A stretch of 64,000 nt of DNA. Source: Naegleria gruberi. Lineage: Eukaryota. Of the stretch, positions 645-52,708 are shown piece after piece. The stretch lies in the NCBI GenBank assembly GCA_000004985.1, contig GG738904.1; one strand, given 5' to 3'. The translations under genes and the position numbers were made by a program. Each line of letters opens with the position of its first letter. Within the stretch, counting starts at the first letter, position 1. The notes under the pieces are model-generated. The model had not been told where the DNA came from. It searched no databases and saw only the letters and a program-made list of their open reading frames with translations.

Positions 645-2444
645 TTATTTGGTCGGAATTTTAAGTGAATCCAGATTCAAATCACTTCTCAAATTCTTCA
701 CCTTATTACTCTCAAACTTGACCTTATTCTTCTTAACATGTTGCTTTTGAGTTTGTTTCTGAAATTCCACAGTTTGCTTGAATCGATGATGAGTATCCAA
801 CATCAAGACACATATTTCACTTTCCACATTATCAAACAGAGTATCAGTCAAATGTTCATTCTCACCACTTGCAAAGTAATCCAATTGTTCCTTAACTCTA
901 TCTGCAGCACTCTTATTAATATTCACTGATTTGTCTCCATTGATATCGAGGAAATCAGTGTAAATTTCAAAGGCAATTTCGTACTTTTTCTTTTCAATTT
1001 CATGGAGATCCTTCTCAGTGTAGCCCTTCTTCTTCTTCTTTTTGTGTTGATGGTCCAAGTTGGAGGAGTTGGCAGTTGCAGAGCTACCTGAATCGGAGAG
1101 AGAATCAGAATGAGAATTTGGACTCATGTCATCATAGAGGAATACTTGAATTTCAAAGGACTTTTCACACAGGATTTTGTAATCTGTAATTTTGTCCAAT
1201 AGTAAGTAATTATCCAAACTCAATTCTTGTTTACAATGGTCCCTGAATAGCTTTCTCAATTTGTTATCCCTCATAGTATCCATCAAGAGGAAGGCGTTGG
1301 CTGCCTTGAGCTTTTTCGTATTACTTGCATCCTTTCGAATAGAGACAATGATTGAGGCAATCACTGATGGCAACACAATGCAAATGGAAACACACACCAC
1401 AATGAGTGAAATTGTAGTGATGGTTACATTAACGCTTCGAGAACTATCTTCCAATTCATTCAGATAGTCAACTGTTGGCTGGAATTCTTCACTGTATCCT
1501 GCAATGTCATATTTGTAAGCGTCAGATTCTAATAACGTCATGGCATATGAATAGTTTCCAATATTTGCCAATTCTAACATTTGAGTTTCAAGAGCAATGG
1601 CCTTGGAAGTTCTCAAATCAGCAACTGAAACATTATGAGTATAGGTATATCGCAAATTAGTTGGCAAATAGGCCAACATTTTCGTAATTTCAGTATTGAA
1701 CTTGGTCTTACTCGTTTCGTATTTTGCAGTATAATTGGCTGTCAGTTGCAAATTGTTATTGGTATAGACAGATGATCTGCAAGCTGCCACCATTCTTTCT
1801 CTATACAATGTAATGTTCAAATCCATACTACCAATTGCTGTTTGTAATTCCGAGTTGACCACATAGTAAGCCACAATCAGGATAAGAAGAGCCATAAAGG
1901 CAAGGAAATTTACAATAAGGGAACTCAAATTCAAAAATTTGACAGGAGTCAATTCAATCGTGGAACCGAAACAAGTTCTAATTTTGAGCATGGTTGTGGA
2001 GGAATGACTTTTAGTGGTAGTCTTTGAACCAATACCAGAGGCAGATCTAGGTTGTTTCTTCTCACCATTATATGGATTACCAGTTGCCACATCATGTTCC
2101 TCAGCAAAATTGGCATTTCTATTCGATTTGTCCATCAGAGCCATCGATCTCATCTCAATGGACACAGAACTGGACTGATGCAAATGATTATTATCATGAG
2201 ATTGCAAAGAACTCGTCGAAGTATTCAAATCAGTTGGCAAATGATGAGAACCATTGGCATAAAGTGAATAATCACAATTATTTGGATCAATTTTGTGAAG
2301 TTCTTCAATGACATTTTGGATGGTTGACTTTTCATGGAGTGAATTCGAAGGAGTGGAAAGAGAAGGATGTTCTGTGATATTCTCTTGTTGCTGCATTTTG
2401 GGAGGTGATTGAGTTGGATTGTTTTTTTGAGTTTGGATATTCAA
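645..2444 (-). CDS. Receptor-like membrane protein with a C-terminal RGS domain. Order is cytoplasmic S/T/N-rich N-terminus, TM1, an intervening loop of about 170 aa, TM2, then an RGS domain split by a poly-K insertion.
   Basis: 599-aa ORF. Two strongly hydrophobic segments (LIVNFLAFMALLILIVAYYVV and ITTISLIVVCVSICIVLPSVIASIIV). The C-terminal region (FLLMDTMRDNKLRKLFRDHCKQELSLDNYLLLDKI ... IAFEIYTDFLDINGDKSVNINKSAADRVKEQL) matches the RGS helix pattern by eye. No splice is needed. Confidence 0.6.
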   Translation of the reverse strand: MNIQTQKNNPTQSPPKMQQQENITEHPSLSTPSNSLHEKSTIQNVIEELHKIDPNNCDYSLYANGSHHLPTDLNTSTSSLQSHDNNHLHQSSSVSIEMRSMALMDKSNRNANFAEEHDVATGNPYNGEKKQPRSASGIGSKTTTKSHSSTTMLKIRTCFGSTIELTPVKFLNLSSLIVNFLAFMALLILIVAYYVVNSELQTAIGSMDLNITLYRERMVAACRSSVYTNNNLQLTANYTAKYETSKTKFNTEITKMLAYLPTNLRYTYTHNVSVADLRTSKAIALETQMLELANIGNYSYAMTLLESDAYKYDIAGYSEEFQPTVDYLNELEDSSRSVNVTITTISLIVVCVSICIVLPSVIASIIVSIRKDASNTKKLKAANAFLLMDTMRDNKLRKLFRDHCKQELSLDNYLLLDKITDYKILCEKSFEIQVFLYDDMSPNSHSDSLSDSGSSATANSSNLDHQHKKKKKKGYTEKDLHEIEKKKYEIAFEIYTDFLDINGDKSVNINKSAADRVKEQLDYFASGENEHLTDTLFDNVESEICVLMLDTHHRFKQTVEFQKQTQKQHVKKNKVKFESNKVKNLRSDLNLDSLKIPTK

Positions 2445-7214: not shown

Positions 7215-8175
7215 GTTTTCGGAATGTACAAAGAAAAACCGGATTAAACCTTAGATTGACTAGTTTGAGTATAGGTAGTAGTATTAGTATTAGTTGTTGT
7301 TGTGTCTTGTTCGGATTGATTTCTATTGAAAAAATCAAAGGAAGGATGATATAAACACATGACCAAAATTGAAAATATTAAAATTCCCAAACAATTCAAA
7401 AAATCATAAAACAATGATGAATAATTCCAGACAAAACTAACAGCACCCAATCCAACTGCAATAATTTGAAAAAATGTTGAAAATATCAAAACTGAAAGCA
7501 AAATGATAATTTTCAAAATGGGTTGTTTCCATGAATAGGATTGAGATTGATCTTTGAATTGTTTTCTTGTCTTGTTGAGGAGTATAATCACTCTTGAAAA
7601 CACAATCTATTCATTATTTCAAAATAATTTTAGTTTTCATAATTTGCATTTAGAATTATGAGAATGTTAAATGAAAACTTACTGAAATTGCAATTGTTTG
7701 AACAATTAATTGAATTGCAAAGAATGCGAAACAAGCAATCACGAATATGAACAATATATCATCAGCATATGGTATCCCAACAGTTTCTGTTGTCAATGTA
7801 CTATTCCTGTTTATCATAACATCTTGATAGAGTTGATCTGTTTCATTCACATTATTCACTTTCAAATAATTGTGAAATCGTTCAACAATGGAAATATTAC
7901 AAAAAGTATAAGCAGTTCTTGCACACAATGCCAATGTTTGAACAATCAACAATGTATTCACGAGAATGAGAACAATTCTCTGAGCCTTCCTCAATGTCTT
8001 CCAAGTTTGATTCCTCACAATGAAAATAATCATGACAAGAATGAGTGAAATGAACAACAAGATGAAGAGAAAGGAAATCGATTGATCTATAGCACTCAAC
8101 AGAGTATCATCAAAATCATCAATAGTAAACACTGGAGAGGAGACATTGTTGGTAGAAGATGACGTTTCGTTTACC
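7215..8175. repeat. Inverted repeat arm 1 (partner arm at about 12165..13355)
   Basis: Translated ORFs on opposite strands are identical over more than 250 aa (SSPVFTIDDFDDTLLSAIDQSISFLF... and ...NKTRKQFKDQSQSYSWKQPILKIIILLSVLIF...). Intron and 3' flank (caatctaaggtttaatccggtttttctttgtaca) are also shared. Confidence 0.75.
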
Positions 8176-11698: not shown

Positions 11699-11770
11699 TC
11701 GTCTCGTGGTGTAATGGTAGCATAGTGGACTTTGAATCCATTGACGGAGGTTCGATTCCTCCCGAGACGG
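11699..11770 (+). tRNA. tRNA-Gln (anticodon TTG)
   Basis: Cloverleaf folded by hand: acceptor CGTCTCG/CGAGACG, D-arm GTGTAATGGTAGCAT, anticodon stem GTGGA/TCCAT with loop CTTTGAA, T-arm GGAGG-TTCGATT-CCTCC. Closely resembles canonical eukaryotic tRNA-Gln(UUG). One extra C lies between the T-stem and the 3' acceptor strand. A T-rich tract follows downstream. Confidence 0.65.
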
Positions 11771-12109
11771 TAAACGTGGCGAGCGTAAAAAATTTTGGTT
11801 TTTACAATGTGTAATAGCTCCAGATAAATTAAACAATAACACCAACCAGCTGACGCAGATTAATAACGCATATGGAAAGAGAATAAACCATTGGTTGGCT
11901 ATTATTGTAATGTTTGTTGTTCGGTTCAATGGTTATCTTCTGGAAACCAGTTCCATATTTGGCAAGTTGCAATATTCACACTTATCGAAAAAGTATGAAT
12001 ATCTCTAAAAAAACAGCCGGCTAGCAGCCTTGCAAGGTCATCTAATTGGTTTCCTTTCATTCCAACATTATCACAACAAAAACAAATAACACTGCATTCG
12101 TTAGAAACA

Positions 12110-13334
12110 GTGAAGAAACTTGCCCACCTTTCAAATTTCAAAACTTTTACTGCCACTACTGACGACTCTTCAAATAACAATGTCTCCTCTCCAGTGTTTA
12201 CTATTGATGATTTTGATGATACTCTGTTGAGTGCCATAGATCAGTCGATTTCCTTTCTCTTCATCTTGTTGTTCATTTCACTCATTCTTGTCATGATTAT
12301 TTTCATTGTGAGGAATCAAACTTGGAAGACACTGAGGAAGGCTCAAAGAATTGTTCTCATTCTCGTGAATACATTGTTGATTGTTCAAACATTGGCATTG
12401 TGTGCAAGAACTGCTTATACTTTTTGTAATATTTCCATTGTTGAACGATTTCACAATTATTTGAAAGTGAATAATGTGAATGAAACAGATCAACTCTATC
12501 AAGATGTTATGATCAATAGGAATAGTACATTGACAACAGAAACTGTTGGGATACCATATGCTGATTTAGTGGGAATGTTTTTCTCGAATGGAATTGAAAC
12601 CTTTTTAATACTGTTAGCTCTCTTGGTGATTAATGAAATTGTGCACTACATTTCTCATCTATTCTTCAATCTGATCAAATATTCACAAGGAATATTGAAA
12701 TCAAAGAGAACCAAAATTATCAGAAAGATATTCGATATTTCCTTTTTCATTAGTTCTGGAGTTTTCTTTGTCTTGCTTATTGCAATTTTAGTAATGCTCA
12801 TAATAGTCAAACTGAAAGTAATTGAAGATATATTGTTCATATTCGTGATTGCTTGTTTCGCATTCTTTGCAATTCAATTAATTGTTCAAACAATTGCAAT
12901 TTCAGTAAGTTTTCATTTAACATTCTCATAATTCTAAATGCTAATACTCATTACTCATTTTGAAATTCAAATAGATTGTATTTTCAAGAGTGATTATACT
13001 CCTCAACAAGACAAGAAAACAATTCAAAGATCAATCTCAATCCTATTCATGGAAACAACCCATTCTGAAAATTATCATTTTGCTTTCAGTTTTGATATTT
13101 TCAACATTTTTTCAAATTATTGCAGTTGGATTGGGTGCTGTTAGTTTTGTTTGGAATTATTCATCATTATTTTATGATTTTTTGAATTGTTTGGGAATTT
13201 TAATATTTTCAATTTTGGTCATGTGTTTATATCATCCTTCCTTTGATTTTTTCAATAGAAATCAATCCGAACAAGACACAACAAATACTAATACCGATAC
13301 TAACAATACTCAAACTAGTCAATCTAAGGTTTAA
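12110..13334 (+). CDS. Multi-pass membrane protein, copy B of the inverted duplicate pair (possibly 5'-truncated or a pseudogene). join(12110..12904, 12975..13334).
   Basis: Same protein as copy A, with an extra internal segment of about 86 aa and a variable Thr/Asn-rich C-terminal tract. A 70-nt GTAAGT..AATAG intron is present (12905..12974). There is no in-frame ATG upstream of the first TM helix; the ORF opens with GTG. Confidence 0.5.
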
Positions 13335-13355
13335 TCCGGTTTTTCTTTGTACAAT
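12165..13355. repeat. Inverted repeat arm 2 (partner arm at about 7215..8175)
   Basis: See arm 1. This arm carries an indel of about 260 bp relative to arm 1. Confidence 0.75.
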
Positions 13356-13577
13356 CTTCCTTATGGTAGAATATGTTCCAAAAATTACTATTAATACTAT
13401 TATTTAAATCATGATGAGATGATGTGGTGAAATTCTTGGAGTTAACAGATGTGAAACTACTCCAACAATCAACAGGGTCGGGTTGCCAATATTTTGGTGT
13501 AATTTTTTCATATGAACAATCCAAAATAGGAATTTATTATTATTTAAAATAATTTAAAAATTGCAATTTAAAAAAAA

Positions 13578-17732: not shown

Positions 17733-19782
17733 TCAAGTCATTATGACTAGATTAACGAATTGAAGTTCGCAGTCAGGTATATTGAATATTAAATCACCTT
17801 CTGTCCGATTTGTTGAATCATTTTCCAACCAGAACCCTAAATTATTCATATCCTCTTCCTGTAATTGAATATAAAACTTTGCATTCGTTCCAAAAATTTG
17901 AAGATTGTGTGAGGACCTAATTTTGAATATTTGCTTATTGTTCTCCTTGCACTGTTCCAATGTAAAGGTAATGTCCTGATCGTTAAAATTGAGCTCCTTC
18001 TTATTTTTTTCTTCTGAAAGAGTGGTATGAAGAATTCTATTACCTTTCCAAAAAAGATTAATAAATAAATGTTAATATAAACTTACTAAAAACGGTTGAG
18101 TTTGGAAACTTTTTAAATTTTTTGATAAATGCCTTCAAAATCTTTTGCTTTGCAAGTGAAGTAATTTCGGATTGGTTCAATAACAATTCAAGGCTATTCT
18201 CTGAAAGATCAGTAATTGTGAGCGATGGCCCCACAGCAAAACAACTTGCAATAGCAATGTGAATCTGTTCAATACGGTCTAATTTGAAAAGAATGCAGAA
18301 TCTCAATAAAATTGATGCTTCTTTCACAATTTTTAAAATGCATTCGTCATCACCTAAATATCGTGCCAGTTCAATTAATTTAAATTTCATATCAAAATCC
18401 GTTATTGATACCGTATCGCTTGTTAGATAATTTACATAGGTGTCAAACACTTGAATGTGATTTGTTGGTTCTTGAAAAATATCATTTTCAATAGGTCTCA
18501 AATCAAGAATAATTTGATTTTCATCTTTTTCATTGAAATCCTTCCAATTTGAGCTCAACATGGTTGATAAATATTTTGATTTTTTCAAATACATTTTTGA
18601 AAGTCTAAAATCTCGTTCTTCAAATCTAATAATCACTAGTTCCATATCATTTTCATCTATAATTTGTAAATCCTCATTGTGTAAATCCTCAATTACAAAC
18701 TGATCATTAGGATTTTCAATAAATTTAAAATTATTAGTATTCACACTCTTTAAACGCCAGAATAGTGCCTTTTTCAGATCTTTTTCAACTCCATATCCGT
18801 TAGAATATGCATTTGCAACATTATTTTGAGATTGTTTTACATCCTTTTCAGCACCTTTCATGTACCACTCGAAAGCCTTTTCTAAATTTTTCTCAACTCC
18901 CCTTCCATTACGATATAAAAAGCCAATATTAGTATATGAATCTGTATTGCCATTTTCAGAAGCTGTTAGATACCATGTCATAGCTTTTGCATAATCTTTC
19001 TCAATTCCTTCTCCATTCTCGTAGGACCATCCAACATTGAATTGTGCATCTGCATGACCATTTTTGGCAGCTCTCAAATACCATTCTACTGCTTTGGATA
19101 GATCTTTTTCTACTCCTTCTGCATAATCATACGCACATGCAACATTGAATTGTGCTTTTGCATAACCATTTTTAGCGGATTTCAAATACCACTCAAATGA
19201 TTTAGGTTTATCTTGTTCAACTCCAACTCCCTTATCGTATGATGCTCCAATGTTGAACTGTGCAATTTCATTACCATTTTCTGCAGCTTTTAAATACCAT
19301 TCCATGGATTTCGAAAGATCCTTAGCAACCCCTTCACCTGAACGATAGAGAACTCCAATATTATTTTGTGATTTTGCAAGATTCCTATCGGCAGCTTTCA
19401 GATACCATTCCATTGCTTTCTTATAATCTTGTTCTACTCCTAAACCATGATGATAGAAATAACCAACTTTATGTATTGATTCTAAACATCCTTGCTCTGC
19501 ACCTTTAGAAAACCATTCAAAGGCCTTCTCACTATCTTTTTCAACTCCACTTCCATCCATATATTTGCACCCTAGAGTGTAATACGATTCGGTGCTTTGA
19601 TTTACGGCTTGTTTTTTACTACTTGGTTCGTTTTTAATAATTTGTTGTTGCGGATCATTACTTTCCGAAGATGAAGGAGTGTCTGTGTTATTAATAATCA
19701 TTTGATCATTCTCATTAATTTCATCATGTTCTGGTGCCTCTCTACATCTTTTCATTTTTTTTTGTTTTTTTTGTTTTTTCAA
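17733..19782 (-). CDS. Sel1-repeat protein with a C-terminal BTB/POZ-like domain. Probably two exons, join(17733..18014, 18087..19782).
   Basis: At least eight Sel1-like repeats (A.EWYLKAAEQG...AQ.N.G..Y..G.GVEKD) are followed by a BTB-like segment (DMELVIIRFEERDFRLSKMYLKKSKYLSTMLSS). A GTAAGT donor sits at the end of the long ORF, and a 72-nt intron to CTTTCAG continues in frame into ORF 17733..17960. Confidence 0.7.
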
Positions 19783-20159: not shown

Positions 20160-20232
20160 GGGGTCTTGGCGCAGTCGGTAGCGCGTAGGTCTCATAATCC
20201 TAAGGTCGTGAGTTCGATCCTCACAGACCCCA
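20160..20232 (+). tRNA. tRNA-Met (anticodon CAT), elongator type
   Basis: GGGGTCT-TG-GCGC-AGTCGGTA-GCGC-G-TAGGT-CTCATAA-TCCTA-AGGTC-GTGAG-TTCGATC-CTCAC-AGACCCC-A. Near-identical in the D/anticodon/T arms to vertebrate elongator tRNA-Met, including the 31:39 T-T mismatch. A T5 run follows at 20235..20239. Confidence 0.88.
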
Positions 20233-20454: not shown

Positions 20455-21675
20455 ATGATCACCTTGTATTTAGATGCGGACTTTCAATCATCAAGTCTAA
20501 AGAGCAAACTTTCTCTCCAATACACTGGTAACAACAAGAAACAATTATTAGGACCAGTCAAGAGCGAAATTCATAAATCTGCCACCAGAGGAAAGATGAT
20601 AACAACATCATCAACACCCTATTTTGCTTTTTCTAATCACTTCCATTCTCCGTATGATATTGTCATTGCTCCAAGGTTGAATTGTATAGTTGTCTCTGAT
20701 TTTGGCAATGAACGTCTCATGTTCTTCTACTTGATGTCCAAGAATTATAGAAAAAGTGTTCCCGTTGCTTTTATGCCAACTGGTTTGTGTGTGGAGGAGA
20801 GAGGCTGTACATCATCTCGTTTATGGAATGTCTCTTCAACAACAACAACAAATACTAGTACTAGCCCTAGAGCTCTAGATAGTAATGATGAGCAATCATC
20901 CGATGATGATGATGATGATGATAATGAATTTAATGATGAAGAAAAGAACAGAGAGGATGCTCTTATATTGGCTGGAGGATATTGTCACTTGATGAAGGTG
21001 AATTTAAAGGTATTGTGGAAGACCAATAATATCAAGTTGGGAGCTCTTGATAGGGATTATACGTGGTGTGTAGGAATTTTGGATGAAAGTGGGAGGACAG
21101 AATTTAAGGAACCATCATCAATTTCCATTTCGTTCGGAAAGACATTTAGGGATAATGTGGTGTTTGTGGCTGATAATTACAATCATGCTATCAAGATTGT
21201 TTCAACTGTGGATGGAAGTATCTTACAATCAATTACTCGATATGTGAGTTATTCATTGGGTAAAGAAATTCATGTGAAGAATCCGAACATTGTCAATGTG
21301 GAATGTTTCACAAAGTTTGGAGAGGTAATTATAGCAAGTCCAGACAAGAATAACATTCATATTATTAGAGAAATTAGTCCAAATGAATGGATTCTTGTCA
21401 AGGAGATTGGAAATAATTCACTCTATTCCCCTTTTGGAATTTGTATAGATCAAGTTAGTCCCTTCAATTACAAATTGATCGTTTCAGATTCATATCATTC
21501 ATCTCTGAAAATACTAGATCGATTTACTGGTCAGGAAGAACAAACATTTGGCAGTAAGGGAAAATCTCTTGGTCAATTCCATCACCCATACGGATTGTGC
21601 TATAATAGAAGACAACAGGAAATATTACTCGTTGATAGAAATAATTCTCGTATTCAGGTTATCAATTATTCTTAA
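20455..21675 (+). CDS. NHL-repeat (six-bladed beta-propeller) protein
   Basis: 406-aa ORF with repeated NHL-type motifs (YDIVIAPRLNCIVVSDFGNERLMFF; NHAIKIV; YKLIVSDSYHSSLKILD; QEILLVDRNNSRIQVI) and an acidic linker. The N-terminus may be incomplete. Confidence 0.65.
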   Translation: MITLYLDADFQSSSLKSKLSLQYTGNNKKQLLGPVKSEIHKSATRGKMITTSSTPYFAFSNHFHSPYDIVIAPRLNCIVVSDFGNERLMFFYLMSKNYRKSVPVAFMPTGLCVEERGCTSSRLWNVSSTTTTNTSTSPRALDSNDEQSSDDDDDDDNEFNDEEKNREDALILAGGYCHLMKVNLKVLWKTNNIKLGALDRDYTWCVGILDESGRTEFKEPSSISISFGKTFRDNVVFVADNYNHAIKIVSTVDGSILQSITRYVSYSLGKEIHVKNPNIVNVECFTKFGEVIIASPDKNNIHIIREISPNEWILVKEIGNNSLYSPFGICIDQVSPFNYKLIVSDSYHSSLKILDRFTGQEEQTFGSKGKSLGQFHHPYGLCYNRRQQEILLVDRNNSRIQVINYS

Positions 21676-21801
21676 TATCAAATGTATTGGTTCCCTTATT
21701 ACCCTGTTAAAAAAGCAAAAACAATCAAGCAATTAATGGAAAGCAAACTTTTAAGAAGAAAAAAATTTCCAACAAAAACGTGAAATTCCAACAATAAAAA
21801 A

Positions 21802-24480
21802 ATGGCACCAAACAAAAACAGCAGCAACAATACACAAAATTCGAAGGCTTGGCATTCGGTGAGGAGAGCCTCCCAATCAACACAACAACCCAGTTTAGCC
21901 ATAGAGGATAGTGTGGATTTGGGAGCAGTTTGCGAAACTCCAGTTACAGCCAAAACACCCATTCGGGAAGCTTTCGAAAATATTGGAAATTATAGTAAAT
22001 CATCAACATCACAAAAGAAGGCTTCTTCATCGTCATCACAGAATGCTCGGAAGCAACAACAAGAAGAGGAATCACGAAAAGATGACGGTGATGGAGAGAT
22101 GGAATTTAATTTCTCTGATTTGGAAGAGGATGAAGATAAATCAGAGAAGAAACAAGAAGAACAATTCGAACGATCGCCAGTGTTCTACTCATCGGAGAGT
22201 GATGCACCTCCAACAAAAAACACCAAATCAAAGAAAACCTATCAACCAACACAGGAGCAAGCATCTGAAAAGGAAGAAGATGAAGAAAAACAAGCAAAAC
22301 AATCATCTAAATCAATAGTCAGTGGTAGTAGTAAACAACGTGCTTCTGACTATTCTCAATATTTCACACCAGATGAGGATGAAAATGAAAAGGAAAAGGA
22401 AGGCTATTCTTTGAGGAAAACTCCAACAAGAGTCTATCAGGAAAAGAAGAAGAGGAAAAAGATGATAAAAAAGAAGGAAATTTTGATCAGTTCCGATGAA
22501 GAGGAAGATGGTCAAACTTTGAGGAATGATAAAATGTATGATAGTGACGAGATACCTGATGAAGATATTGAAGCAATGGAAGAACAAGAAAGAGCTAGGA
22601 AGAGGAAACAACCACAAACTGAGGAAGAAAGAAGAGAACGAGAAAAACAAGAGGAGGAGAGAAAGAAGGCCGAACTGAAATTGAGGAAAAAGAAATTGAC
22701 AGAACTTTCAAATTCAATGAGAAAGAAAAATCAACACAAATCCATTTATATTGAGGAGGAGGATGAGATTTCAAAGGATTTATTTTCGAGTGGAAAGAGA
22801 AAGTCAACATTTGATGATGATGAGCTATTCTCTCAGCCATCATCTAAGGAAGAAAAAGAAGTCTTCTCCTCTCCAAAGAAGAGACTAAAGAAGAAGTCTG
22901 GTAGTCCAGTCGGTTCAACAATCACATTCGACAAGGAGGATAGTGATGATGCCAATAGTGAAGAGTTGGAAAATTTAGCAAAGGAAATTAGAGAAAATAA
23001 TCTACTTTTGTCTGCTAAAAAGAAGAAGAAACCACTCAGTCTAAAAACTCAAAAAAGAAAGTCACACAGTAGCTCAGAAGAGGAAGCTCCACGAAGAAAA
23101 TCAACAAGTACTAGAAAAGGTAGAGATCAAGACAGTGAAGATGAAGATGATGGTATGGTTACCATGAGTCAATTTATTGTAAGTGATGAGGAAGAGGATG
23201 AAGCACCTGAATACAACGTCTATAGAATGGTCGACATGATGGAAAATGATATGGATTCACAAGAGTTCCACTCCATTCTCACAAGTAATACCAGACTCTC
23301 CTCAGATTTCAAATCTTCCTTTGCAATCTATATTCATTTTATCACTTCACACTTGCTGGATGAGGATTTTATTCAATCTCTCAAATTTAAAGATAGAACT
23401 CACTTTGCTAATGCCTCAAAAATGGTGGAAGGTAAATTGGAAACGGTCAAGGACAGCTTAATTTATAGCTCAGCTTGGAAATCGAGACACAAGAACCTTC
23501 TCCAATTCTATCCAATCATTAAGGCTAGAGAAATTTCTCTCAAGGATACTGAAATTGACAATAGCGACAAGTGTTGTCAAGCTTGTGGCAGAAAGAACCA
23601 TCAAGCTGAATATACACTCATATTCAAACCACCAAGAGCTACCACTAAATATGAATTTTCATCCGGAGCTCACATCAACTGGATAGATTCACCAGAGGAA
23701 GATTCGGAGGAGGATAATGATTTTATTCAACTCTCACAAAGAAGAGCAGTAACAGGTAAAAAATGTAAATATACTAAGGAGAAGTCATTCGTTGGATCGA
23801 CCTGTTACAAACGATCCTTATTGTACCATAGTTTCCAACATTACAAATTCCATTTAATTCAACATATTATCAACAAGATTGACAAGATTGCCACCAATTT
23901 TGAAGGAGAAGAAGAAATTACAAGCGACTATATTTTGGACAAGATTGTTTCTAAAAAGAGTTGGATTGAATCACTCTACAAAAAGTATCTCAAATTAATT
24001 GAGGAAGCAGAGGCTAGTTATACCAAATCGAAGGATGCTGGAGTTATTGATGTGGTTGATGAATTATTCGATGTCTATGATTCAGAGGAGGAAGTAATCA
24101 ATTCAGATCCAGAAGAAAAGGACAATGACTTTATTGTTACCAACACACGTGGAGGACTTCGATTGAAACGAACCAAACCAAAATCAGATGATGAGCAAGA
24201 TCAAGACGATGCTGAGCTCATTGACACCACAGAAGAACAAATACCTCCTCAAAAGGAAAAGCCAAAACAACCAAGAGAATTGAAATTATCATTTGCAGTT
24301 TCTCCCATTCCTGTTGAAGACGATGAAGAAGATAAAGAGCTTGACTTTTTGGATAAGGAAGAAGACATTCCAAAACCGCTCTCACCAAAAGAAAATTCAA
24401 AAAAGACGGAAGAGAAAATCCCAGATTTGAGTGGATATCTTGACTCGTCAGATGACGACATTCTCAATTATAATTTTTAA
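21802..24480 (+). CDS. Highly charged E/K/D/S-rich 892-aa protein with a C-terminal Cys/His-containing globular region; function unknown
   Basis: Uninterrupted 2.7-kb ORF. Long acidic/basic low-complexity stretches are typical of nucleolar or chromatin proteins. Conserved-looking C-terminal block SAWKSRHKNLLQFYPII...DKCCQACGRKNHQAEYTLIF. Confidence 0.65.
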   Translation: MAPNKNSSNNTQNSKAWHSVRRASQSTQQPSLAIEDSVDLGAVCETPVTAKTPIREAFENIGNYSKSSTSQKKASSSSSQNARKQQQEEESRKDDGDGEMEFNFSDLEEDEDKSEKKQEEQFERSPVFYSSESDAPPTKNTKSKKTYQPTQEQASEKEEDEEKQAKQSSKSIVSGSSKQRASDYSQYFTPDEDENEKEKEGYSLRKTPTRVYQEKKKRKKMIKKKEILISSDEEEDGQTLRNDKMYDSDEIPDEDIEAMEEQERARKRKQPQTEEERREREKQEEERKKAELKLRKKKLTELSNSMRKKNQHKSIYIEEEDEISKDLFSSGKRKSTFDDDELFSQPSSKEEKEVFSSPKKRLKKKSGSPVGSTITFDKEDSDDANSEELENLAKEIRENNLLLSAKKKKKPLSLKTQKRKSHSSSEEEAPRRKSTSTRKGRDQDSEDEDDGMVTMSQFIVSDEEEDEAPEYNVYRMVDMMENDMDSQEFHSILTSNTRLSSDFKSSFAIYIHFITSHLLDEDFIQSLKFKDRTHFANASKMVEGKLETVKDSLIYSSAWKSRHKNLLQFYPIIKAREISLKDTEIDNSDKCCQACGRKNHQAEYTLIFKPPRATTKYEFSSGAHINWIDSPEEDSEEDNDFIQLSQRRAVTGKKCKYTKEKSFVGSTCYKRSLLYHSFQHYKFHLIQHIINKIDKIATNFEGEEEITSDYILDKIVSKKSWIESLYKKYLKLIEEAEASYTKSKDAGVIDVVDELFDVYDSEEEVINSDPEEKDNDFIVTNTRGGLRLKRTKPKSDDEQDQDDAELIDTTEEQIPPQKEKPKQPRELKLSFAVSPIPVEDDEEDKELDFLDKEEDIPKPLSPKENSKKTEEKIPDLSGYLDSSDDDILNYNF

Positions 24481-24530
24481 AAATACAATTTAATATTAAC
24501 ATGTTTACAATGTATTGATTTGATCATCTC

Positions 24531-25298
24531 TTAATCCTTCTTCACACCAGGACTAATCCATTGCAAAACACTTGGTTGATTGTAAACCCACTTTCTGAAA
24601 TCTTCTTTTGAAATCTTTCCCTTATGTTCTCCTTCAGAATCCCTCTCAGCTTGTTCAAAACATTTATCCACAATTGAATCAATTTCACTTTGTTCAATGA
24701 CTTTGTGTGATGTAGTTTCGTATTCTGGCAAATTTAAACTCTTTCTCACATCCGATAAGAGAGCAAGACTCTTATTGAAAAGACATGATAAAAGATGAGA
24801 CATTTCATGTCTTTCAATAAATCCATTTCCATCTTCATCATAAACAGAAAAGATGACTATTTCCAATATATTATTTCTAATAACATTTCTGTGTGAAACT
24901 TACAATTAAGAATATTTTGAAAATAATTCTGCCAATTCTAACTTTCCGACTATTTCGAATAAATTAACAAGACGAAACTAAGTTTCCACTTACAATGTGT
25001 CTTATCTTGAAGTTCTACGATGGATTTTTCAACATTTCCTCGTTCCTTCTTTTCCAACAACATTCTAGGACTAATTTTGATGGCTGCCAAACGATCAATC
25101 ACATCAAGAGAATCGTATCTTTTAATTTGCAATCGATTAGCACTATTCGAAATTAGACGAAACCATAAAATTAATAAAATTAACATACAGTGACTTGTTG
25201 ACGGCTTTCAAAGGTGTTTTATGAAGAGTTTGCACTGGCTCTTCGTCATCTCCTGTTGTTTCAATTACTGGATTAGCTTCAATATCTTTCAATGACAT
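24531..25298 (-). CDS. EF-hand calcium-binding protein (calcineurin-B/CHP-like). Three exons, join(24531..24855, 24994..25142, 25189..25298).
   Basis: Introns of 46 nt (GTATGT..AATAG) and 138 nt (GTAAGT..AATAG) restore one frame. Exon 3 has a canonical EF-hand loop DEDGNGFIERHE and a second degenerate one, DSEGEHKGKISKED. Confidence 0.6.
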
Positions 25299-25592: not shown

Positions 25593-27159
25593 ATGCTCGA
25601 AAATCAAAACCCACACGAAAATACAAATAATAATTCATCATCTACATTAAAGATGATAGGATCAGGATCAGTTCAATCAATTGAGAAGAGTGTATTCATT
25701 GATATGGATACATTGTGTTATCCAAAATTGCAACACCTCTCACAAGTGGAGGAAAATATCAAGGGAGGATTATTCTATTGAAGATGGTAAGGAACAGCCA
25801 TTTGTCTTGTTGGAAAAATTGGATGGAAGTCTCTGTTCACCAATTATTGAGAGAGTTGTTTCAGAAAGTGATGCTTCTAGTTTGAATAGCTCATTGAAAA
25901 AGAATAATTTTGCTTCAGTTTCTGCAGAGAAAATTGAAAAGAGAGCATATGATACTTTCAGATTGAGAATGAGAACTAAATTGTCGCATACCAATGCTAT
26001 TGTAATGGGTATGGAAGAGTTGATTTATGATTTGGGAGACGAAGGAACAAGGAGAAATGCCAAAGGAGAGGATATCAAGTTAATATTGAATGATCATTTG
26101 AAGAATGTTCCAACTTTCGAATACAAGACAAGTGAAATGACAAAAGAAGAGGAGGAATATTTGGTTTTCAAAATTGATGAACAAGCTTTGGAAATTGATG
26201 CCAATTTCACTCAACTCTCTGAAAAAGTGCAAAACTTTATCAGATTTTGCATTCATTGGATAAATAAGGGTTTCACACCACTCTTTGAATTCTTCAGTAA
26301 GGAACACAAGATTGTCATTGATTATGGAGACAAACCATTCCTATCATTGTTGGCTCTTAGACATACAGTGGATGGTTACTTCCTCCCATATTCACAAGTC
26401 AAGAAGAGTGCTCAACAATATGGCATTGACTGTGTCAAGGAATGCTCAAATGAACAAGTCATAGAAGCAGCCAAGACAGGAGATATGGATGAAATTTTGA
26501 AAGCCATTCGAAATGAAAGAGGCGTCGAAGGATATGTCCTTGTGTTAAATAATGGTTGGATGTTCAAAGTCAAATCCATGTGGTACAATAACATTCACAA
26601 AACCAATGGATTTATCAGTAAGGGAGAATTGAAAGAATCTAGAATATGGCAATATTGTTTCGATTCAAAAATTGATGATGTTATAGGATTTGTTAGAAGA
26701 GACGAGGATAGAATTCGTCTACAAGAATTCAATGACACTGTCATCAATGCTCTGAATAATTATGTCTCAAAAGTTCAACAATTCAAAGAGATAATTCAAC
26801 TTGAATTACAGAAAGAATTCCCAAATACACCAATCGAAGAAATTCCAATGAAAGATTACTCAAGAGTTGCCAAACAAGTAATTAAGGATGAACCAAATTA
26901 TGTTTTCACAGCACTCGTTGTAAATAAGAAGGATCAAACCAGTTTATCATCACTCATTAAGGAATATTGTAGTAGAAATGTTGTCAATCAATTGGGATCT
27001 ATCAAAAACATGCTAGGTTGTCAAGACATTGAATTTATTTCCAGAAGTGAAATTAATAGAAGAGCAAAATTGCAGAGACAGAAAGAAGGAGCTACACAAG
27101 AAGAAGAAGTCAACCAAGAAGAGGACGAAGATTCTGAAGATGCTGCTGAAGATTTATAA
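25593..27159 (+). CDS. ATP-dependent RNA-ligase-like nucleotidyltransferase (Rnl1/T4 RNA ligase 1-like). 5' region has a frame discontinuity.
   Basis: Motif I, KLDGSL (LLEKLDGSLCSP); motif IV, EGYVLV; motif V, FKVKSMW. An upstream IEKSVF segment resembles the T4 Rnl1 pre-motif region. Motif I lies upstream of the first ATG in the long-ORF frame; the ATG-initiated ORF 25593..25781 is in another frame, so a short intron (for example 25715..25763) or a frameshift is required. Confidence 0.5.
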
Positions 27160-27541
27160 ATCTTAAGATATTCAGAGAGATAATAAGAGACCTAATGCCT
27201 TTCAATACCAATTTTTCTCTAACTCAAAACCAATAATCTAGATCACCATTCTTGGTTTCCCGCCGATTTCTTTCATTTAAAAAATAAAAAAATTCACCAA
27301 TAATTGCTAATTGAGATGAGGATTGATGGTTGTTGATAACTTCAAGTATCAATCTCGGAATAGTCGAATACTATGGCAATAATGAATCTCTCCATCTCTA
27401 AACATTATAATTACATGAACAAATTAAAAGTTTAACGACATCAAGGGAAACAATATTGCCAAATACACAGAGATGATGTTCTGTGATTTGTTGTTTCCAG
27501 AAAATTGTTTAATTGGGAATTAATTTCTATACTGACTAGTG

Positions 27542-30500
27542 TTGATGATTATTACAGTTTATTGTTCTTCGATACTTTACATCAATCGGAGATTAATTAA
27601 TAGAAAAAAGATGCAAGATAGTTTCGCCTCTTTTAAACACCAATCAGGCCAAAACATGATGAACAGTAGTACAATGGATAGTCAATCTATTGTTGGTCAA
27701 TCCACTCAATTCTCTTTCGAATTGGAATCAGGAACAGACCAACAACCTGATTTGATATCTTCCTTCAATGAAAAGATAACTGGACATCTTACAGACCTTC
27801 AATCAAATTCGAGTTATAATGGTTGGAAATCTATGATATTGTATGGAGCCATCAATTTATATTATTGGTACCTGTTGATAGTGTTACCTTTGGTTCCAAC
27901 ATTTTCTCAGGAAATTTTGAATCCGAATACAACAACCTCTCCATTTGGATATTATGGATCTTGGATATTTAGAGGTATGGCCTTCCCTCTGACTTTGGGA
28001 TTAGACTTACTACCATACGATGGATTTGTGGGTGTTGGAATAGTTGTGCTTTTGGTTACCTTTTTCCTCACATGTTTACATTTACAAAATCTTACACCTA
28101 AACGAAATGCTAAACTTCAAGAGATACTATCAAAGATATTGGGAATTGCTACACACACCTTCCTGTTTATTGGCCCAGCCATGATGTATGCTCTGACAAA
28201 CTTTACCGATTGTCGATCCACAACTGAGGATGGAGTTTTGTCTTTCATGTTGAGTAGAGATAGTTCAGCTGAATGTGTGGCTGGTACAAATATCATCTTT
28301 ATGGTCTTGGCATGTATTGCTCTAATATTTCTAGAGATGGTTATGTTTTTCTCTGGTTTCGTATATCCAATCTTTTCGAGCACTGGTACTATTGCCTTCC
28401 TTCCACAAGATAACACTCCTGTAGCTTTGGTGTTTGCCTCTGTGGGACTAAGAATAATGACTTCTTTCTCAATTCCATCCAATTATTTGTATGGTAGAGC
28501 TGTCTGTCATATTGTCATTGGTATTATTCCTTTAATTGTTATGTTTTATCAAGTTCCTTTTGTACGAATGATTGAGAATGCAATTTATACGGGAATTTTA
28601 GGTGCCTCTATTGGATCTGCTGTAGGAGTATTGGTTAGCACGTTTGTGAGCTCGGGAACTGATATTGGCATGTCTTTGGGTATGCTAGGTATGACAGTTG
28701 GTTGTTCTCTCCTTTTTGGATTGCTTTGCTCTTTAATCATGTTCTTTTACTTGGTTGTGACTGTCAAGAGAGTGAGAAATTTCCTTAAATCCATTGATGA
28801 AGATATTCAAATTATCACTCCTCTCATTGAGAACACTCTAGGGTTAAGAAATATGGAAATATTCTTCAGATTATCCCTCAGAAAACGATTTAGTCCTGAT
28901 TTTAATGAAGATGATGAGAACCTGGAAGATTTTCCTCGCTGCCTTATCTACGCAAAGAGAGAAGCAATGAATAAGAGCTTTATAAATACAGGAATGCTAT
29001 TTCTCTGCGCGACTGCAATCAGCAAGGTGAGGGACATTCAATCTCTTTCTCTCACACTCTTCAAAAAGGCATTGAAATCTTCAAAGAATCCTTTCACGAA
29101 CTACTTAATTACCACTCACATGAAAATTATAGAATTAGGTGTCACTGATGCTATTTCCCTCAAATCATCTCTTTCAGTCTTGGAGAAAAAGAGAGTCGAG
29201 CTCAAGGCCATTCACAAAATGTTTTTCAAAGAATTTACTAATGAAATACCAAACAAGGACAAGATTGAAAACTTTGTAACAATGGCCAATGATATTGTCC
29301 AATATTGTGATCAAACCTTTTCTGTTTTACTTTCAAGAGGTAGGGATAAAACAATACTCAGATATTATGCCAACTATATTGAAACTGTCAAGATGGATAA
29401 AGATGCTGCCTCTGCTCTTATTGACGAAGCTAATTTATTGGAAGAAGAAGATGTAAGAGGAGTTATAAGAAAGGGAAGACACAAGACGAATAGAGTTCTT
29501 CCTACCGATAAAAAAATGACTTTTATTGAGGAAATGTCCCAAACCGGAGAAGAAGATTTTCTTGGACTTGATACTAGACAAGCAACAGAAAAAAAGCAGG
29601 CCATTTATAGAAATGCTCTTGCTGTACCATACAAATCTAATTGGAGATACTTAATGTTGGTTATATTGTCTGTATTGGCTGTGGGTACGCTTTCGGCAAC
29701 TTTAGGATTGGGTCTGTTCAATAGTATTAGAGCAACAGAGACAAATCTAGTTATTCAAAGTTGTTTGCCAATGCTTGTGCCTGAGGGATTATTGAGATAT
29801 GTCAGAATGAGACAAATCATGCTCGAACTATTTACAAATCAAAGAATTTCATTACCAGCTGTTGGCAGTGTTAATAGAGCCAATGTTGACAACTATCTTT
29901 CCTATTTTGAAAATAAGATTGCCACAAAGAGAGATAACCTTTTATCATTGGCTGAAAACTCTAGGTCTCACAGGTTCACAGATAGCATGTACAAGGATTA
30001 TACACAAAGAAAGGAAGTTTATATTCCTGTTCCTTCTAAAAACGGATCTCTAACCTACTTGGAAAACTATATGAAAAATGTGTCAATGAGTGAAATTACG
30101 CTCGAGTTTGCAAAGCATGCCAATTATTTTAGTGAATTTTCGGTTGAAGCTTTCAATACCACAAGTTCTAGCTTTACTTTTATGTTTGTCTTCTTTAACA
30201 GAGTTCAAGCAGCACAAGGTTTCAGATCATTTTGTCAATCATTCCAACAAAGTGAAACAACTTACATTGATGAGAATGATAAGGCCTTATGGACCTACAT
30301 TCTAGTTTCAGGTTCTATTTCTTGTATTTATATTTTATTGTATAGCATTATATCAAGATTGGAAATGGAAAGATTGTCAAGAATCATTAAGCTATATAAG
30401 AAGATTCCAAAAGATACAATTGGTGTAATCTATCACAATTTAGATAAGACCTGTCCAGATCATAACTCTAAATCTGGCAGAACCTTCTTGTCTAAACCAA

Positions 30501-32407
30501 AGAATTTAGCAATCATGTTACCAGTAGTTTTGTTGATTTTATATAGTGCTACTGCAGCTCTAATTTACTTTGAAAGTTCAATGAATATTGCAAATTCAAA
30601 AGATGCCATTACCTCTGTTGATAACTTGGCTGTACTTACAAGATTTACAGTCAAGTTGAGCACTAAGTTGGGAGAAATGTTTGCTTTCTTTAGTGTACCT
30701 CATGGAAGACCTGTTAACGCTGCTGTTACTTTTGATCAGGTTGAGCTGTACAGAAATGAAGTTAGAGATTTTGCCACCATTGTTCAAGATTCATACGATT
30801 CATTCATTGAAACCTATACTAGAGGCAGTAGTGGTGGAGTGGTTGGTAAATATCCAGCTATTGATGAACTAGTTGGTGGACCTGCAAATTGTACTGGTGA
30901 TAGAAACTGTTCATTACAAGCAATGTTATCGAGCTACGTCTCACAAGTTACTACCATGGCTGAGGAATATTTCAATCCACTCTTTTCTGCCCAAGTAGAA
31001 CCAACATTTTACAAATATTTGTCACTCTATAATATGAATGAGGAAATTTATGATAGAGTAATGAAGATTCTAGATTTACTCGAAAAGCACACCTCAGAGT
31101 CCTCTAAAGTTATCTCAATTGTAACATTTGCTGTATTTTTCCTCTTTCTATTTTTGGTTTCCTTCTTGCTGTACAGATCTGCTCAAGTGTACGATGATGA
31201 AATTACCACAATTCGTTCCCTGTTGAGCTACTTACCACTTGATTATTTGGAATCTAATGAACAAATTAAGAATTTTATATTCTTCAATGGTTTCAAATCA
31301 GAAAAGGTTGCTAAAAAAGAAGAAGATGAAAATTCAATGAACAACTTACTTGATTCTATGGTAGATGGTGCATTCTTATCCAATGAGAGAGGTGAAGTTG
31401 TGCTTTTCAATAAGGCTGCTCAAAAGGTATGTCAAATATTTTNNNNNNNNNNNNNNNNNNNNNNNNNNNNNNNNNNNNNNNNNNNNNNNNNNATTACCAG
31501 ATACAAGGGTGCAAAGTACATGGTCTGTTTCATTAAAGATATCACTCCTGAAAAGAAACAAAAAGCTCTATTAGCAGAAGAAAAGAAGAACTCTGAAGCA
31601 TTATTGAGAAATATTCTACCTGAGGCAGTTGCCAGTAAATTGAAATCAGGAGATACCTTCATTGCTGAAAGATTTACTGATGTGACTTGTTTCTTCTCTG
31701 ATATGTAAGTAGTTTCATAGTATTTCCATTTTTACTAAGCAATTAAAATAGGGTCGGATTTACAAGTTTATCTTCCAATATGAATCCTTCTGATTTAGTG
31801 TTAATGTTGAATGAAATTGTAAATGGTTTTGATGACTTGACTGACAAGTACACTTTAGAAAAGATTAAAACTATTGGAGATGCTTATTTCTGTGTGGGTG
31901 GACTGTAAGTATTTAACTGTAAATGATAACCATCTAACTATTTCAATAACCAGTCATAACAACTCTCAATCAGATCACCCTGAACGTGTTCTCAGATTTT
32001 CCATCGATTGCCTTGATGTTATCAAGATTCACAATGAAAATCATCCAGATAGCCGTATCAATATCAGATTGGGAATTAACACTGGTAGTGTAGTTGCTGG
32101 TGTGATCGGAAAGAAAAAGTTTGCCTACGATTTGTGGGGTGATACAATCAATATGGCTTCCAGAATGGAATCTACCTCACTAGCAGGAAGAATTCACATA
32201 TCACGATCAACCTATGAACGAGTTCATGATTTAGGTTTGGAATTTGAGGAAAGACAAGTTGAAGTGAAAGGAAAGGGTCTTTGCCAAACCTATCTCTTAC
32301 TTGCAAAATATCATGCTGATCCGCTTGCTGAATCCTTTGTCAATCATCACTTAATGGACGCTGTTGAACCAATGGATGATGACAATGTCAACCAAGACCA
32401 TGATTAA
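27542..32407 (+). CDS. Receptor-type class III adenylyl cyclase: polytopic N-terminal membrane domain, two further TM helices, PAS domain and cyclase catalytic domain. Three exons, join(27542..31704, 31752..31904, 31954..32407).
   Basis: Intron 1 (GTAAGT..AATAG, 47 nt) splices ...FFSDM to VGFTSLSS. Intron 2 (GTAAGT..ACCAG, 49 nt) splices ...GDAYFCVGGL to HNNSQSDHPERV. The catalytic motifs KIKTIGDAYF and YDLWGDTINMASRMES carry the Lys/Asp pair typical of adenylyl rather than guanylyl cyclases. A 50-N gap lies inside the PAS region. Confidence 0.8.
31443..31492. other. Assembly gap (50 N) inside the cyclase coding region
   Basis: Run of N characters; the true length is unknown. Confidence 0.99.
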
Positions 32408-52703: not shown

Positions 52704-52708
52704 TTTTT
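52704..52708 (+). terminator. Pol III oligo(dT) terminator of the 5S gene
   Basis: A TTTTT run lies immediately 3' of the 5S sequence. Confidence 0.6.

What the first reader, a model, noticed from the sequence alone, without database searches (positions are those of the whole stretch)
25593..27159. ATP-dependent RNA-ligase-like gene (KLDGSL / EGYVLV / FKVK) with an unresolved 5' frame break
Covalent nucleotidyltransferase motifs I, IV and V are present, in the form characteristic of the T4 Rnl1 family (KxDGSL, EGYV, hFKhK), preceded by an IEKSVF segment like the Rnl1 pre-motif-I region. Stand-alone Rnl1-type RNA ligases are sporadic in eukaryotes, where they act in tRNA splicing and RNA repair, and are often of bacterial or phage ancestry. 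The spacing between motifs I and IV (about 240 aa) is longer than in T4 Rnl1, and an acidic C-terminal tail is appended. The catalytic lysine lies upstream of the first ATG of the main frame, and the only ATG-initiated ORF (25593..25781) is in another frame. So either a short intron (the 49-nt candidate 25715..25763) or a 1-nt frameshift is needed, and a frameshift would imply a pseudogene.
Basis: partly seen in the sequence, partly recalled or inferred. Interest (0 to 1): 0.6.

Follow-up and report, generated by a model that had tools for sequence, protein, structure and literature searches.

The report
Naegleria Rnl1 RNA-ligase gene, N-terminus deleted
This is an already catalogued T4-Rnl1-type RNA ligase gene of the amoeba Naegleria gruberi, and its odd frame break is an out-of-frame deletion of about 90 codons that removes the ATP-holding N-terminal part of the enzyme, so this copy is probably a young pseudogene.

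Summary
The motifs are real. The locus is Naegleria gruberi NAEGRDRAFT_81474 (EFC38820.1), which hits Pfam RNA_lig_T4_1 at E = 4e-18. It is one of seven Rnl1-family paralogs already listed by Unciuleac & Shuman (2015).

The frame break is neither an intron nor a 1-nt slip. Directly after it, about 90 codons found in all 73 relatives examined and in T4 Rnl1 are missing from the whole window. The two flanks are left in different frames.

The lost segment carries the counterparts of T4 Rnl1 Arg54 and Lys75 (ATP gamma-phosphate contacts, essential in vitro) and Phe76/77. The public gene model bridges the lesion with a 67-nt "intron" starting GTTATC. Real introns nearby start GTAAGT or GTATGT.

The remaining 1.4 kb is still an open frame, keeps 75 of 77 clade-invariant residues and shows no rate acceleration. 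The lesion is therefore recent.

Most likely this is a young pseudogene or a catalytically disabled copy. It could also be a single haplotype or an assembly artefact, or a spliced truncated protein. Interest is low: a known gene family plus an annotation correction.

The parts
25593..25781 (+). Remnant 5' ORF (62 codons, frame 3, stop TGA at 25779..25781), with ATGs at 25593, 25653 and 25704. This is the original start of the ligase gene.
   Evidence: The second Met (MIGSGS...) lines up with the N. fowleri start MISSSCS....
25695..25766 (+). Orphaned conserved N-terminal coding segment FIDMDTLCYPKLQHLSQVEENIKG.
   Evidence: tblastn matches it to N. fowleri aa 12-35 at 79% identity, to Willaertia aa 6-28 and to P0004 aa 11-33. 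Against N. fowleri, pS is about 1.0 and pN is 0.16.
25764..25768 (+). Deletion junction. About 90 codons are missing here (N. fowleri about V36 to R126/V127; 299 nt net against L001 10106..10423), and the frame shifts from 3 to 1.
   Evidence: The missing segment has no credible match anywhere in the 64-kb window.
25717..25783 (+). The 67-nt 'intron' implied by the public gene model (EFC38820.1, ...IDMDTL|YGKEQPF...). It runs GTTATC...GAAG and has a non-consensus donor.
   Evidence: Derived by comparing the P0001 sequence with the DNA. Real neighbouring introns start GTATGT or GTAAGT.
25765..27159 (+). Main body of the ligase gene in frame 1: linker, nucleotidyltransferase motifs I to V, helical C-terminal region, acidic tail and stop TAA.
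   Evidence: A single tblastn HSP to N. fowleri aa 142-575 at 61% identity. PF09511 profile positions 92-224 are matched.
25816..25833 (+). Motif I KLDGSL, carrying the lysine nucleophile.
   Evidence: K, D and G are invariant in 73 relatives.
25957..25983 (+). Motif Ia region FRLRMRTKL, aligned with T4 FKSKGS (Lys119).
26275..26298 (+). Motif III TPLFEFFS, aligned with T4 ANFEFVA (Glu159).
26527..26544 (+). Motif IV EGYVLV.
26560..26577 (+). Motif V MFKVKS, aligned with T4 HFKIKS (Lys240 and Lys242).
27100..27156 (+). Acidic C-terminal tail, also present in the N. fowleri and Willaertia orthologs.

Best explanation
The locus is the Naegleria gruberi ortholog (NAEGRDRAFT_81474, EFC38820.1) of a heterolobosean stand-alone T4-Rnl1-type ATP-dependent RNA ligase.

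Shown: in this assembly the gene carries a recent out-of-frame internal deletion of about 90 codons. The deletion removes the Rnl1-specific N-terminal sub-domain. That sub-domain holds the counterparts of T4 Rnl1 Arg54 and Lys75, which grip the ATP gamma-phosphate, and Phe76/77, which lie on the adenine. The rest of the gene (motifs I to V and the C-terminal region) survives intact but in another frame.

Inferred: translation from the ATG ends after 62 codons. Even if the lesion is bridged by a weak intron, as in the public model, the product should be unable to carry out step 1, lysine adenylylation. This copy is therefore best read as a young pseudogene or a catalytically disabled copy. The intact paralog EFC38139.1, and presumably the other paralogs, carry the function.
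For: Identity and orthology:
- 99% identity to the N. gruberi protein P0001 = EFC38820.1.
- The gene is adjacent to the same two upstream genes as N. fowleri FDP41_001479.

Family:
- PF09511 at E = 3.9e-18, TIGR02308 at E = 2e-21, T4 Rnl1 PDB chains at E about 3e-9.
- The AlphaFold model of the intact ortholog (pLDDT 87.9) has T4 Rnl1 as its best match among solved structures, E = 1e-12, followed by fungal Trl1-LIG.

Deletion:
- Ortholog residues about 11-35 map to 25695..25766 in frame 3, and residues about 124/142 onward map from 25762/25786 in frame 1. The residues between them match nowhere in the window.
- The alignment shows the gap in this gene alone.
- All 73 relatives examined have an Arg (Lys in one) at the N. 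fowleri R94 position and a Lys (Arg in one) at the K112 position, and nearly all keep the flanking ExRG and KFFN context.
- Intact relatives match PF09511 in two stretches, including profile positions 1-95. This gene matches only positions 92-224.
- N. fowleri REVRG and PKFFN align with T4 ECRG (R54) and EKFFN (K75, F76, F77).
- Arg54 and Lys75 contact the ATP gamma-phosphate and are essential in vitro (PMC6379707).

Not an intron:
- The 5' segment is under coding constraint, with pS about 1.0 and pN 0.16.
- The candidate donors GTGTTA and GTTATC differ from the GTAAGT and GTATGT donors of three introns in the adjacent gene, of the N. fowleri ortholog's own intron and of about eight other ORF junctions in the window.
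- N. fowleri and Willaertia have no intron at this position.

Recent:
- 492 open codons (chance about 4e-17).
- 75 of 77 clade-invariant residues are kept.
- Relative-rate test: 52 unique changes in N. gruberi against 44 in N. fowleri, chi-square 0.67.
Against: - The surviving 1.4 kb shows no decay at all. That is equally what continued selection on a truncated protein would produce, or an error or single haplotype in the assembly.
- No reads, transcripts or peptides from N. gruberi could be examined.
- The splice consensus rests on about a dozen local introns, and weak donors are sometimes used.
- The loss of activity is inferred from T4 Rnl1 and Trl1 mutational and structural data. It was not tested on this protein.
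Confidence: 0.6

Rival explanations
1. A truncated but functional protein. The lesion is bridged by splicing (public model 25717..25783, or the reader's 25715..25763). The result is a 499-505-aa Rnl1-like protein without the N-terminal sub-domain. Selection keeps it for some activity that does not need normal ATP gamma-phosphate contacts, such as sealing pre-adenylylated RNA, RNA binding, or acting together with a paralog.
For: - Both candidate introns have GT..AG ends and restore the frame.
- The downstream ORF is intact, with all catalytic motifs and no rate acceleration.
Against: - The putative intron sequence shows coding constraint and 79% amino-acid identity to N. fowleri. It was therefore exon until recently.
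- The donors GTGTTA and GTTATC do not fit the local GTAAGT/GTATGT consensus.
- None of 73 relatives lacks the sub-domain.
- Arg54 and Lys75 are essential in T4 Rnl1.
Confidence: 0.18
2. An assembly, cloning or single-haplotype artefact. The organism has an intact gene of about 590 codons, and the reference scaffold carries a deleted version.
For: - The complete lack of decay downstream and the coding constraint upstream fit a gene that is intact in vivo.
- The scaffold is a draft with N-runs at 31443..31492 and 61294..61740.
Against: - There is no gap, N-run or low-complexity sequence at the junction.
- A clean 270-300-nt loss shared by all reads of a multi-fold shotgun assembly is unusual. 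This point rests on inference, not on a test.
- No second N. gruberi sequence of this gene exists in the searched protein collection.
Confidence: 0.17
3. Programmed +1 ribosomal frameshifting at ...TTC TAT TGA A (25773..25782), as in antizyme. This would join the 5' ORF to the main frame without splicing.
For: - The frame change needed is +1.
- Skipping the T of the TGA stop puts GAA GAT GGT in the main frame.
Against: - No stimulatory element or precedent was examined.
- The orthologs are single continuous ORFs without any shift.
- The product would still lack the deleted sub-domain.
Confidence: 0.02

Closest known systems
Bacteriophage T4 RNA ligase 1 (Rnl1/gp63; PDB 2C5U, 5TT6, 9DO4)
   Same: - Same Pfam and TIGR family.
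- Motifs I (KxDGSL), Ia, III (FEF), IV (EGYV) and V (FKxK) align.
- T4 Rnl1 is the best match among solved structures for the intact ortholog model.
   Different: - The window gene lacks the N-terminal sub-domain with Arg54, Lys75 and Phe76/77.
- The heterolobosean clade has about 34 extra residues between motifs I and Ia and about 65 between Ia and III. It also has a longer C-terminal helical region, with no PF20819 (T4_Rnl1_C) hit at E <= 0.01, and an acidic tail.
- The gene is eukaryotic and nuclear.
Naegleria fowleri FDP41_001479 (602 aa) and Willaertia magna ABK040_009640 (591 aa), the intact orthologs
   Same: - 58-61% and 49-51% identity over the shared part.
- The same upstream neighbours in N. 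fowleri.
- The same insertions and acidic tail.
   Different: - They are uninterrupted in this region. N. fowleri has a single GTAAGT intron elsewhere and Willaertia has none.
- They contain the roughly 90-residue segment that is deleted here.
N. gruberi paralog EFC38139.1 (NAEGRDRAFT_81726, 592 aa) and the other Rnl1 paralogs listed in Unciuleac & Shuman 2015
   Same: - Same family and architecture, 38% identity.
- Both are named in the published list of seven N. gruberi Rnl1 members.
   Different: The paralog keeps the N-terminal sub-domain: PF09511 profile positions 1-95 are matched.
Fungal and plant tRNA ligase Trl1, LIG domain (PDB 6N0T, 6N0V, 8RBJ, 9QW7)
   Same: [quoted passage not shown]
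   Different: - There are no fused kinase or cyclic phosphodiesterase domains here. Only PF09511 is detected.
- Sequence similarity is much weaker than to T4 Rnl1.
NgrRnl (N. gruberi Rnl5 nick-sealing ligase, PDB 5COT)
   Same: Same organism and the same covalent nucleotidyltransferase superfamily.
   Different: A different family (Rnl5), with an N-terminal OB-like domain and no C-terminal domain. The structural match is only weak, E about 4e-3.

Membership tests
Rnl1 (T4 RnlA) family of ATP-dependent RNA ligases | Significant match to the family profile (Pfam PF09511 RNA_lig_T4_1) | tested here: met
   E = 3.9e-18, 66.6 bits against a cut-off of 28.3. Only profile positions 92-224 of 227 are matched. 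TIGR02308 gives E = 2e-21 but 76.5 bits, below its equivalog cut-off of 242.
Rnl1 (T4 RnlA) family of ATP-dependent RNA ligases | Motif I KxDGSL with the lysine nucleophile, plus motifs Ia, III, IV and V | tested here: met
   KLDGSL, RMRTKL, LFEFFS, EGYVLV and FKVK are all present and aligned with T4 Rnl1 and 73 relatives.
Rnl1 (T4 RnlA) family of ATP-dependent RNA ligases | Rnl1-specific N-terminal sub-domain with counterparts of T4 Arg54, Lys75 and Phe76/77 (ATP gamma-phosphate and adenine contacts) | tested here: not met
   Absent from both frames and from the whole window. An Arg/Lys and a Lys/Arg occupy these positions in all 73 relatives. Their role is taken from PMC6379707.
Rnl1 (T4 RnlA) family of ATP-dependent RNA ligases | Rnl1-type all-helical C-terminal domain (Pfam PF20819 T4_Rnl1_C) | tested here: inconclusive
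   There is no PF20819 hit at E <= 0.01 in this protein or its heterolobosean relatives. Sequence alignments do run into T4 residues about 300-323. The ortholog model is helical there and aligns over its full length with T4 Rnl1.
Rnl1 (T4 RnlA) family of ATP-dependent RNA ligases | One continuous coding sequence from a start codon through motif I | tested here: not met
   The ATG ORF stops at 25781. The main frame has no ATG before 25969, which is after motif I.
Rnl1 (T4 RnlA) family of ATP-dependent RNA ligases | ATP-dependent self-adenylylation and sealing of 3'-OH/5'-PO4 RNA ends | not testable with these tools
   Needs recombinant protein.
Trl1-type tRNA splicing ligase (fungi, plants) | Ligase domain fused to polynucleotide kinase and cyclic phosphodiesterase domains | tested here: not met
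   Only PF09511 is detected in this protein and its orthologs. No kinase or CPD domain is found.
Unitary (non-processed) pseudogene | A disabling lesion relative to intact orthologs at the syntenic position | tested here: met
   An out-of-frame deletion of about 90 codons at a locus that shares its upstream neighbours with N. fowleri.
Unitary (non-processed) pseudogene | Signs of relaxed constraint (further stops or frameshifts, accelerated substitution) | tested here: not met
   No further lesion in 464 aligned codons. Relative-rate test 52 against 44, chi-square 0.67. 75 of 77 invariant residues are kept. If this is a pseudogene, it is young.
Unitary (non-processed) pseudogene | Lack of a translated full-length product | not testable with these tools
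   No N. gruberi transcript or peptide data could be reached. The only proteomic mention (D2VWE1) comes from N. fowleri lysate.

The most novel reading that the evidence does not exclude
The deletion is real and the gene is still expressed through the weak intron. N. gruberi would then keep under selection an Rnl1 derivative that lacks the whole ATP gamma-phosphate-binding sub-domain. Such a natural 'step-1-less' ligase might seal only pre-adenylylated RNA, act as an RNA-binding or regulatory partner of its paralogs, or use another nucleotide-binding mode.
Probability: 0.1. Interest if true: 0.5.

Novelty: already known. Interest (0 to 1): 0.2.

Why it matters
The main value is a correction. 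One of the seven Naegleria gruberi Rnl1 ligases cited as evidence for an unusually rich RNA-repair repertoire appears to be a damaged copy. Its public protein model (EFC38820.1 / XP_002671564.1 / D2VWE1) is patched with an implausible intron.

Anyone who expresses this model to study Naegleria RNA repair should expect an enzyme without its ATP-binding sub-domain. The N. fowleri or Willaertia ortholog, or the intact paralog EFC38139.1, would be a better choice.

More broadly, the heterolobosean Rnl1 clade is 500-660 aa long, with two insertions in the nucleotidyltransferase domain and an acidic tail. It remains biochemically uncharacterised.

Tried and rejected
Rejected because it encodes conserved residues under coding constraint and has a GTGTTA donor.
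- A 1-nt frameshift. Rejected because the flanks are separated by about 90 missing codons, not one base.
- Missing segment displaced elsewhere in the window. tblastn at E <= 10 gave only weak hits at 21394..21724 (E = 0.3-5.5), and these lie inside an unrelated 406-aa ORF. Rejected as chance.
- A split gene or a stand-alone N-terminal domain elsewhere in the genome. The third homology search, with the 129-aa N-terminal segment, returned nothing, not even the source protein. It is uninformative.
- A second N. gruberi copy or strain. The P0001 cluster has a single member. P0001 is not on record in the contig index. Two degenerate-pattern scans of metagenome contigs gave 0 hits.
- Trl1-type architecture. 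Rejected because there are no kinase or CPD domains.
- An unbiased ORF-junction scan for introns was too permissive to give a clean consensus. I used it only to note that GTAAGT or GTATGT donors recur at ORF junctions.

Full report
**What is at the coordinates**

The window is AT-rich (about 33% G+C). It comes from Naegleria gruberi: the predicted product is 99% identical to "predicted protein [Naegleria gruberi]" P0001. P0001 is EFC38820.1 / XP_002671564.1 / NAEGRDRAFT_81474 / UniProt D2VWE1.

- An ATG ORF at 25593..25781 ends in TGA.
- A 492-codon open frame at 25681..27159 lies in a different frame.
- It carries KLDGSL (25816..25833), EGYVLV (26527..26544), FKVK (within 26560..26577) and an acidic tail.
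- The first in-frame ATG of the long frame (25969) lies after motif I.
- At this composition, 492 open codons have a chance probability of about 4e-17.

**Family assignment**

- A conceptually joined product hits Pfam RNA_lig_T4_1 (PF09511) at E = 3.9e-18, 66.6 bits, against a gathering score of 28.3.
- It hits NCBIfam TIGR02308 "T4 RnlA family RNA ligase" at E = 2e-21, below the equivalog cut-off.
- It matches the T4 Rnl1 crystal-structure chains 2c5u, 5tt6 and 9do4 at E about 3e-9. FEF (motif III), EGYV (IV) and FKxK (V) are aligned.
- An AlphaFold model of the intact N. fowleri ortholog (73-sequence alignment, mean pLDDT 87.9, pTM 0.82) has T4 Rnl1 as its best match among solved structures (E = 1e-12). 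Fungal Trl1 ligase domains follow.

The Rnl1 assignment is sound.

**The gene is not new**

Unciuleac & Shuman (RNA 2015, PMC4408790) state that N. gruberi encodes seven Rnl1-family members. Their accession list includes EFC38820.1 (this gene) and EFC38139.1 (the paralog P0008). None of the seven is described there as characterised.

**The frame break**

I compared the window by tblastn with the orthologs from N. fowleri (P0002, 602 aa), Willaertia magna (P0003, 591 aa) and an environmental Naegleria-like contig (P0004).
- Their residues about 11-35 match window 25695..25766 in the ATG frame (FIDMDTLCYPKLQHLSQVEENIKG against FHDMDILHYPKLTHLSQIEENIKG, 79% identity).
- Their residues from about 124-142 onward match from 25762-25786 to about 27078 in the other frame.
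- The 90-106 residues in between have no credible match anywhere in the 64 kb.
- The only weak hits (E = 0.3-5.5 at 21394..21724) fall inside an unrelated 406-aa ORF.

A multiple alignment shows this gap in the N. gruberi gene alone. At DNA level, 318 nt of the N. fowleri gene (L001 10106..10423) correspond to 19 nt of the window. That is a net loss of 299 nt, which is not a multiple of three.

Neither ortholog has an intron at this position. Willaertia has no intron at all. N. fowleri has a single 51-nt GTAAGT...TAAG intron far downstream.

The frame break is the scar of an out-of-frame deletion of about 90 codons at about 25764..25768.

**Orthology**

The two genes immediately upstream of the N. 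fowleri ligase are an EF-hand/ADH-like gene and an 812-aa gene. Both lie immediately upstream in the window (22378..25138), as an inverted block. The ligase genes themselves are colinear.

**What was lost**

In the ortholog model, the deleted stretch (about V36 to V127) forms two beta-hairpins and three helices at pLDDT 80-96. It contains the clade-invariant residues F61, E92, R94, G95, R108, K112, F113, F114, E118 and E121.

phmmer aligns N. fowleri REVRGLAF and MPKFFN with T4 Rnl1 ECRGIMF and MEKFFN, which are Arg54 and Lys75-Phe76-Phe77.

According to Banerjee et al. [quoted passage not shown] Arg54 and Lys75 contact the ATP gamma-phosphate and Phe76 contacts the adenine. [quoted passage not shown]

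All 73 relatives I aligned, heterolobosean and prokaryote/phage-type, have an Arg (Lys in one) and a Lys (Arg in one) at these positions. Intact relatives match PF09511 in two stretches, including profile positions 1-95. The window gene matches only positions 92-224.

It has no counterpart in the family.

**Can splicing rescue the gene?**

Two GT..AG intervals restore the frame.
- The interval implied by the public model (...IDMDTL|YGKEQPF...), 25717..25783, has the donor GTTATC.

Real introns nearby are different.
- Three introns of the adjacent EF-hand gene start GTATGT, GTAAGT and GTAAGT, and each ends ATAG.
- The N. fowleri ortholog's own intron starts GTAAGT.
- GTAAGT or GTATGT donors recur at about eight other long-ORF junctions in the window. 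Only 36 such hexamers occur on both strands of the window.

The 24 codons that such an intron would largely remove differ from N. fowleri at essentially every synonymous site (pS about 1.0). They differ at only 16% of non-synonymous sites. This segment has therefore been exon for nearly all the time since the species split.

Even a spliced product would lack the ATP-binding sub-domain.

**Age of the lesion**

- The rest of the gene shows no decay. It gives one uninterrupted tblastn HSP of 434 residues to N. fowleri.
- 75 of 77 clade-invariant residues are kept, the same as for intact members.
- A Tajima relative-rate test with Willaertia as outgroup is balanced: 52 changes unique to N. gruberi against 44 unique to N. 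fowleri, chi-square 0.67.
- By my rough estimate, an unconstrained frame of this length would probably acquire a stop within a few percent neutral divergence. The species themselves are saturated at synonymous sites. This estimate is inference, not a computed result.

The deletion is therefore recent, or not fixed, or not real in the organism.

**Verdict on mechanism**

- Most likely (about 0.6): a young unitary pseudogene or catalytically disabled copy of one of several Rnl1 paralogs.
- About 0.18: a truncated protein made through the weak intron and kept for some other role.
- About 0.17: an assembly or single-haplotype artefact that hides an intact gene.
- About 0.02: +1 frameshifting at TAT-TGA-A.

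I could not reach any N. gruberi reads, transcripts or peptides.

The only proteomic mention of D2VWE1 is a cross-species identification in the 70-kDa band of N. fowleri lysate (PMC7350353). That size matches the intact 70.3-kDa N. fowleri ortholog rather than the 57.6-kDa N. gruberi model.

**The clade as a whole**

Intact members occur in Naegleria, Willaertia and Acrasis, in at least two paralog groups. They are 500-660 aa long.
- They carry about 34 extra residues between motifs I and Ia and about 65 between Ia and III, mostly confident helices in the model.
- They have a long helical C-terminal region with no PF20819 hit.
- In the group of this gene they also have an acidic tail.

The nearest relatives outside Heterolobosea in the profile search are 340-400-aa T4 RnlA-type proteins. 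Where a source names them they are bacterial or archaeal, and most come from metagenomes. I did not build a phylogeny.

By analogy with T4 Rnl1, the intact enzymes would seal 3'-OH/5'-PO4 breaks in RNA loops through lysyl-AMP and AppRNA intermediates. That is inference from family membership.

**Novelty and interest**

The gene and its family assignment are already published. The new points are the nature of the frame break and the likely defect of the public model. This is an annotation-level correction. Interest is 0.2.

Noticed in passing
window 52586..52704 (+): A 5S rRNA gene (Rfam RF00001, 105 bits). The same element is conserved at nucleotide level in the N. fowleri locus L001 at about 2158..2315 and in the Willaertia locus L002 at about 18747..18880, near the ligase orthologs.
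   Followed up: partly
window 11699..11771 (+) and 20160..20232 (+): tRNA-Gln(UUG) and tRNA-Met(CAU) genes.
   Followed up: no
window 12176..13356 (+) and 8150..7222 (-): An inverted duplication of about 1.1 kb at 94-98% identity. It includes a GTAAGT intron in both copies.
   Followed up: partly
window 22378..25138 compared with L001 4577..9266: The two-gene block directly upstream of the ligase (an 892-codon acidic/lysine-rich ORF and a multi-exon EF-hand gene) is inverted relative to N. fowleri. One breakpoint lies just 5' of the ligase gene.
   Followed up: partly
window 27539..31708 (+): A very long ORF (at least 1389 codons) with many hydrophobic segments and a C-terminal cyclase-like motif (...FTDVTCFFSDM). 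It is interrupted by a scaffold gap of Ns at 31443..31492. A second N-run lies at 61294..61740.
   Followed up: no
window 18058..19782 (-) and 20455..21675 (+): A 574-codon ORF with many Sel1-like 'GxGVEKD...A..WY.KAA' repeats, and a 406-codon ORF with NHL-repeat-like segments. Both were read by eye only.
   Followed up: no
L001 11271..11321 (N. fowleri ortholog): The single intron of the N. fowleri ligase gene is 51 nt long, in frame and free of stops. Its retention would simply insert 17 residues (VSSLQLVDIRYIVKFSK region).
   Followed up: no
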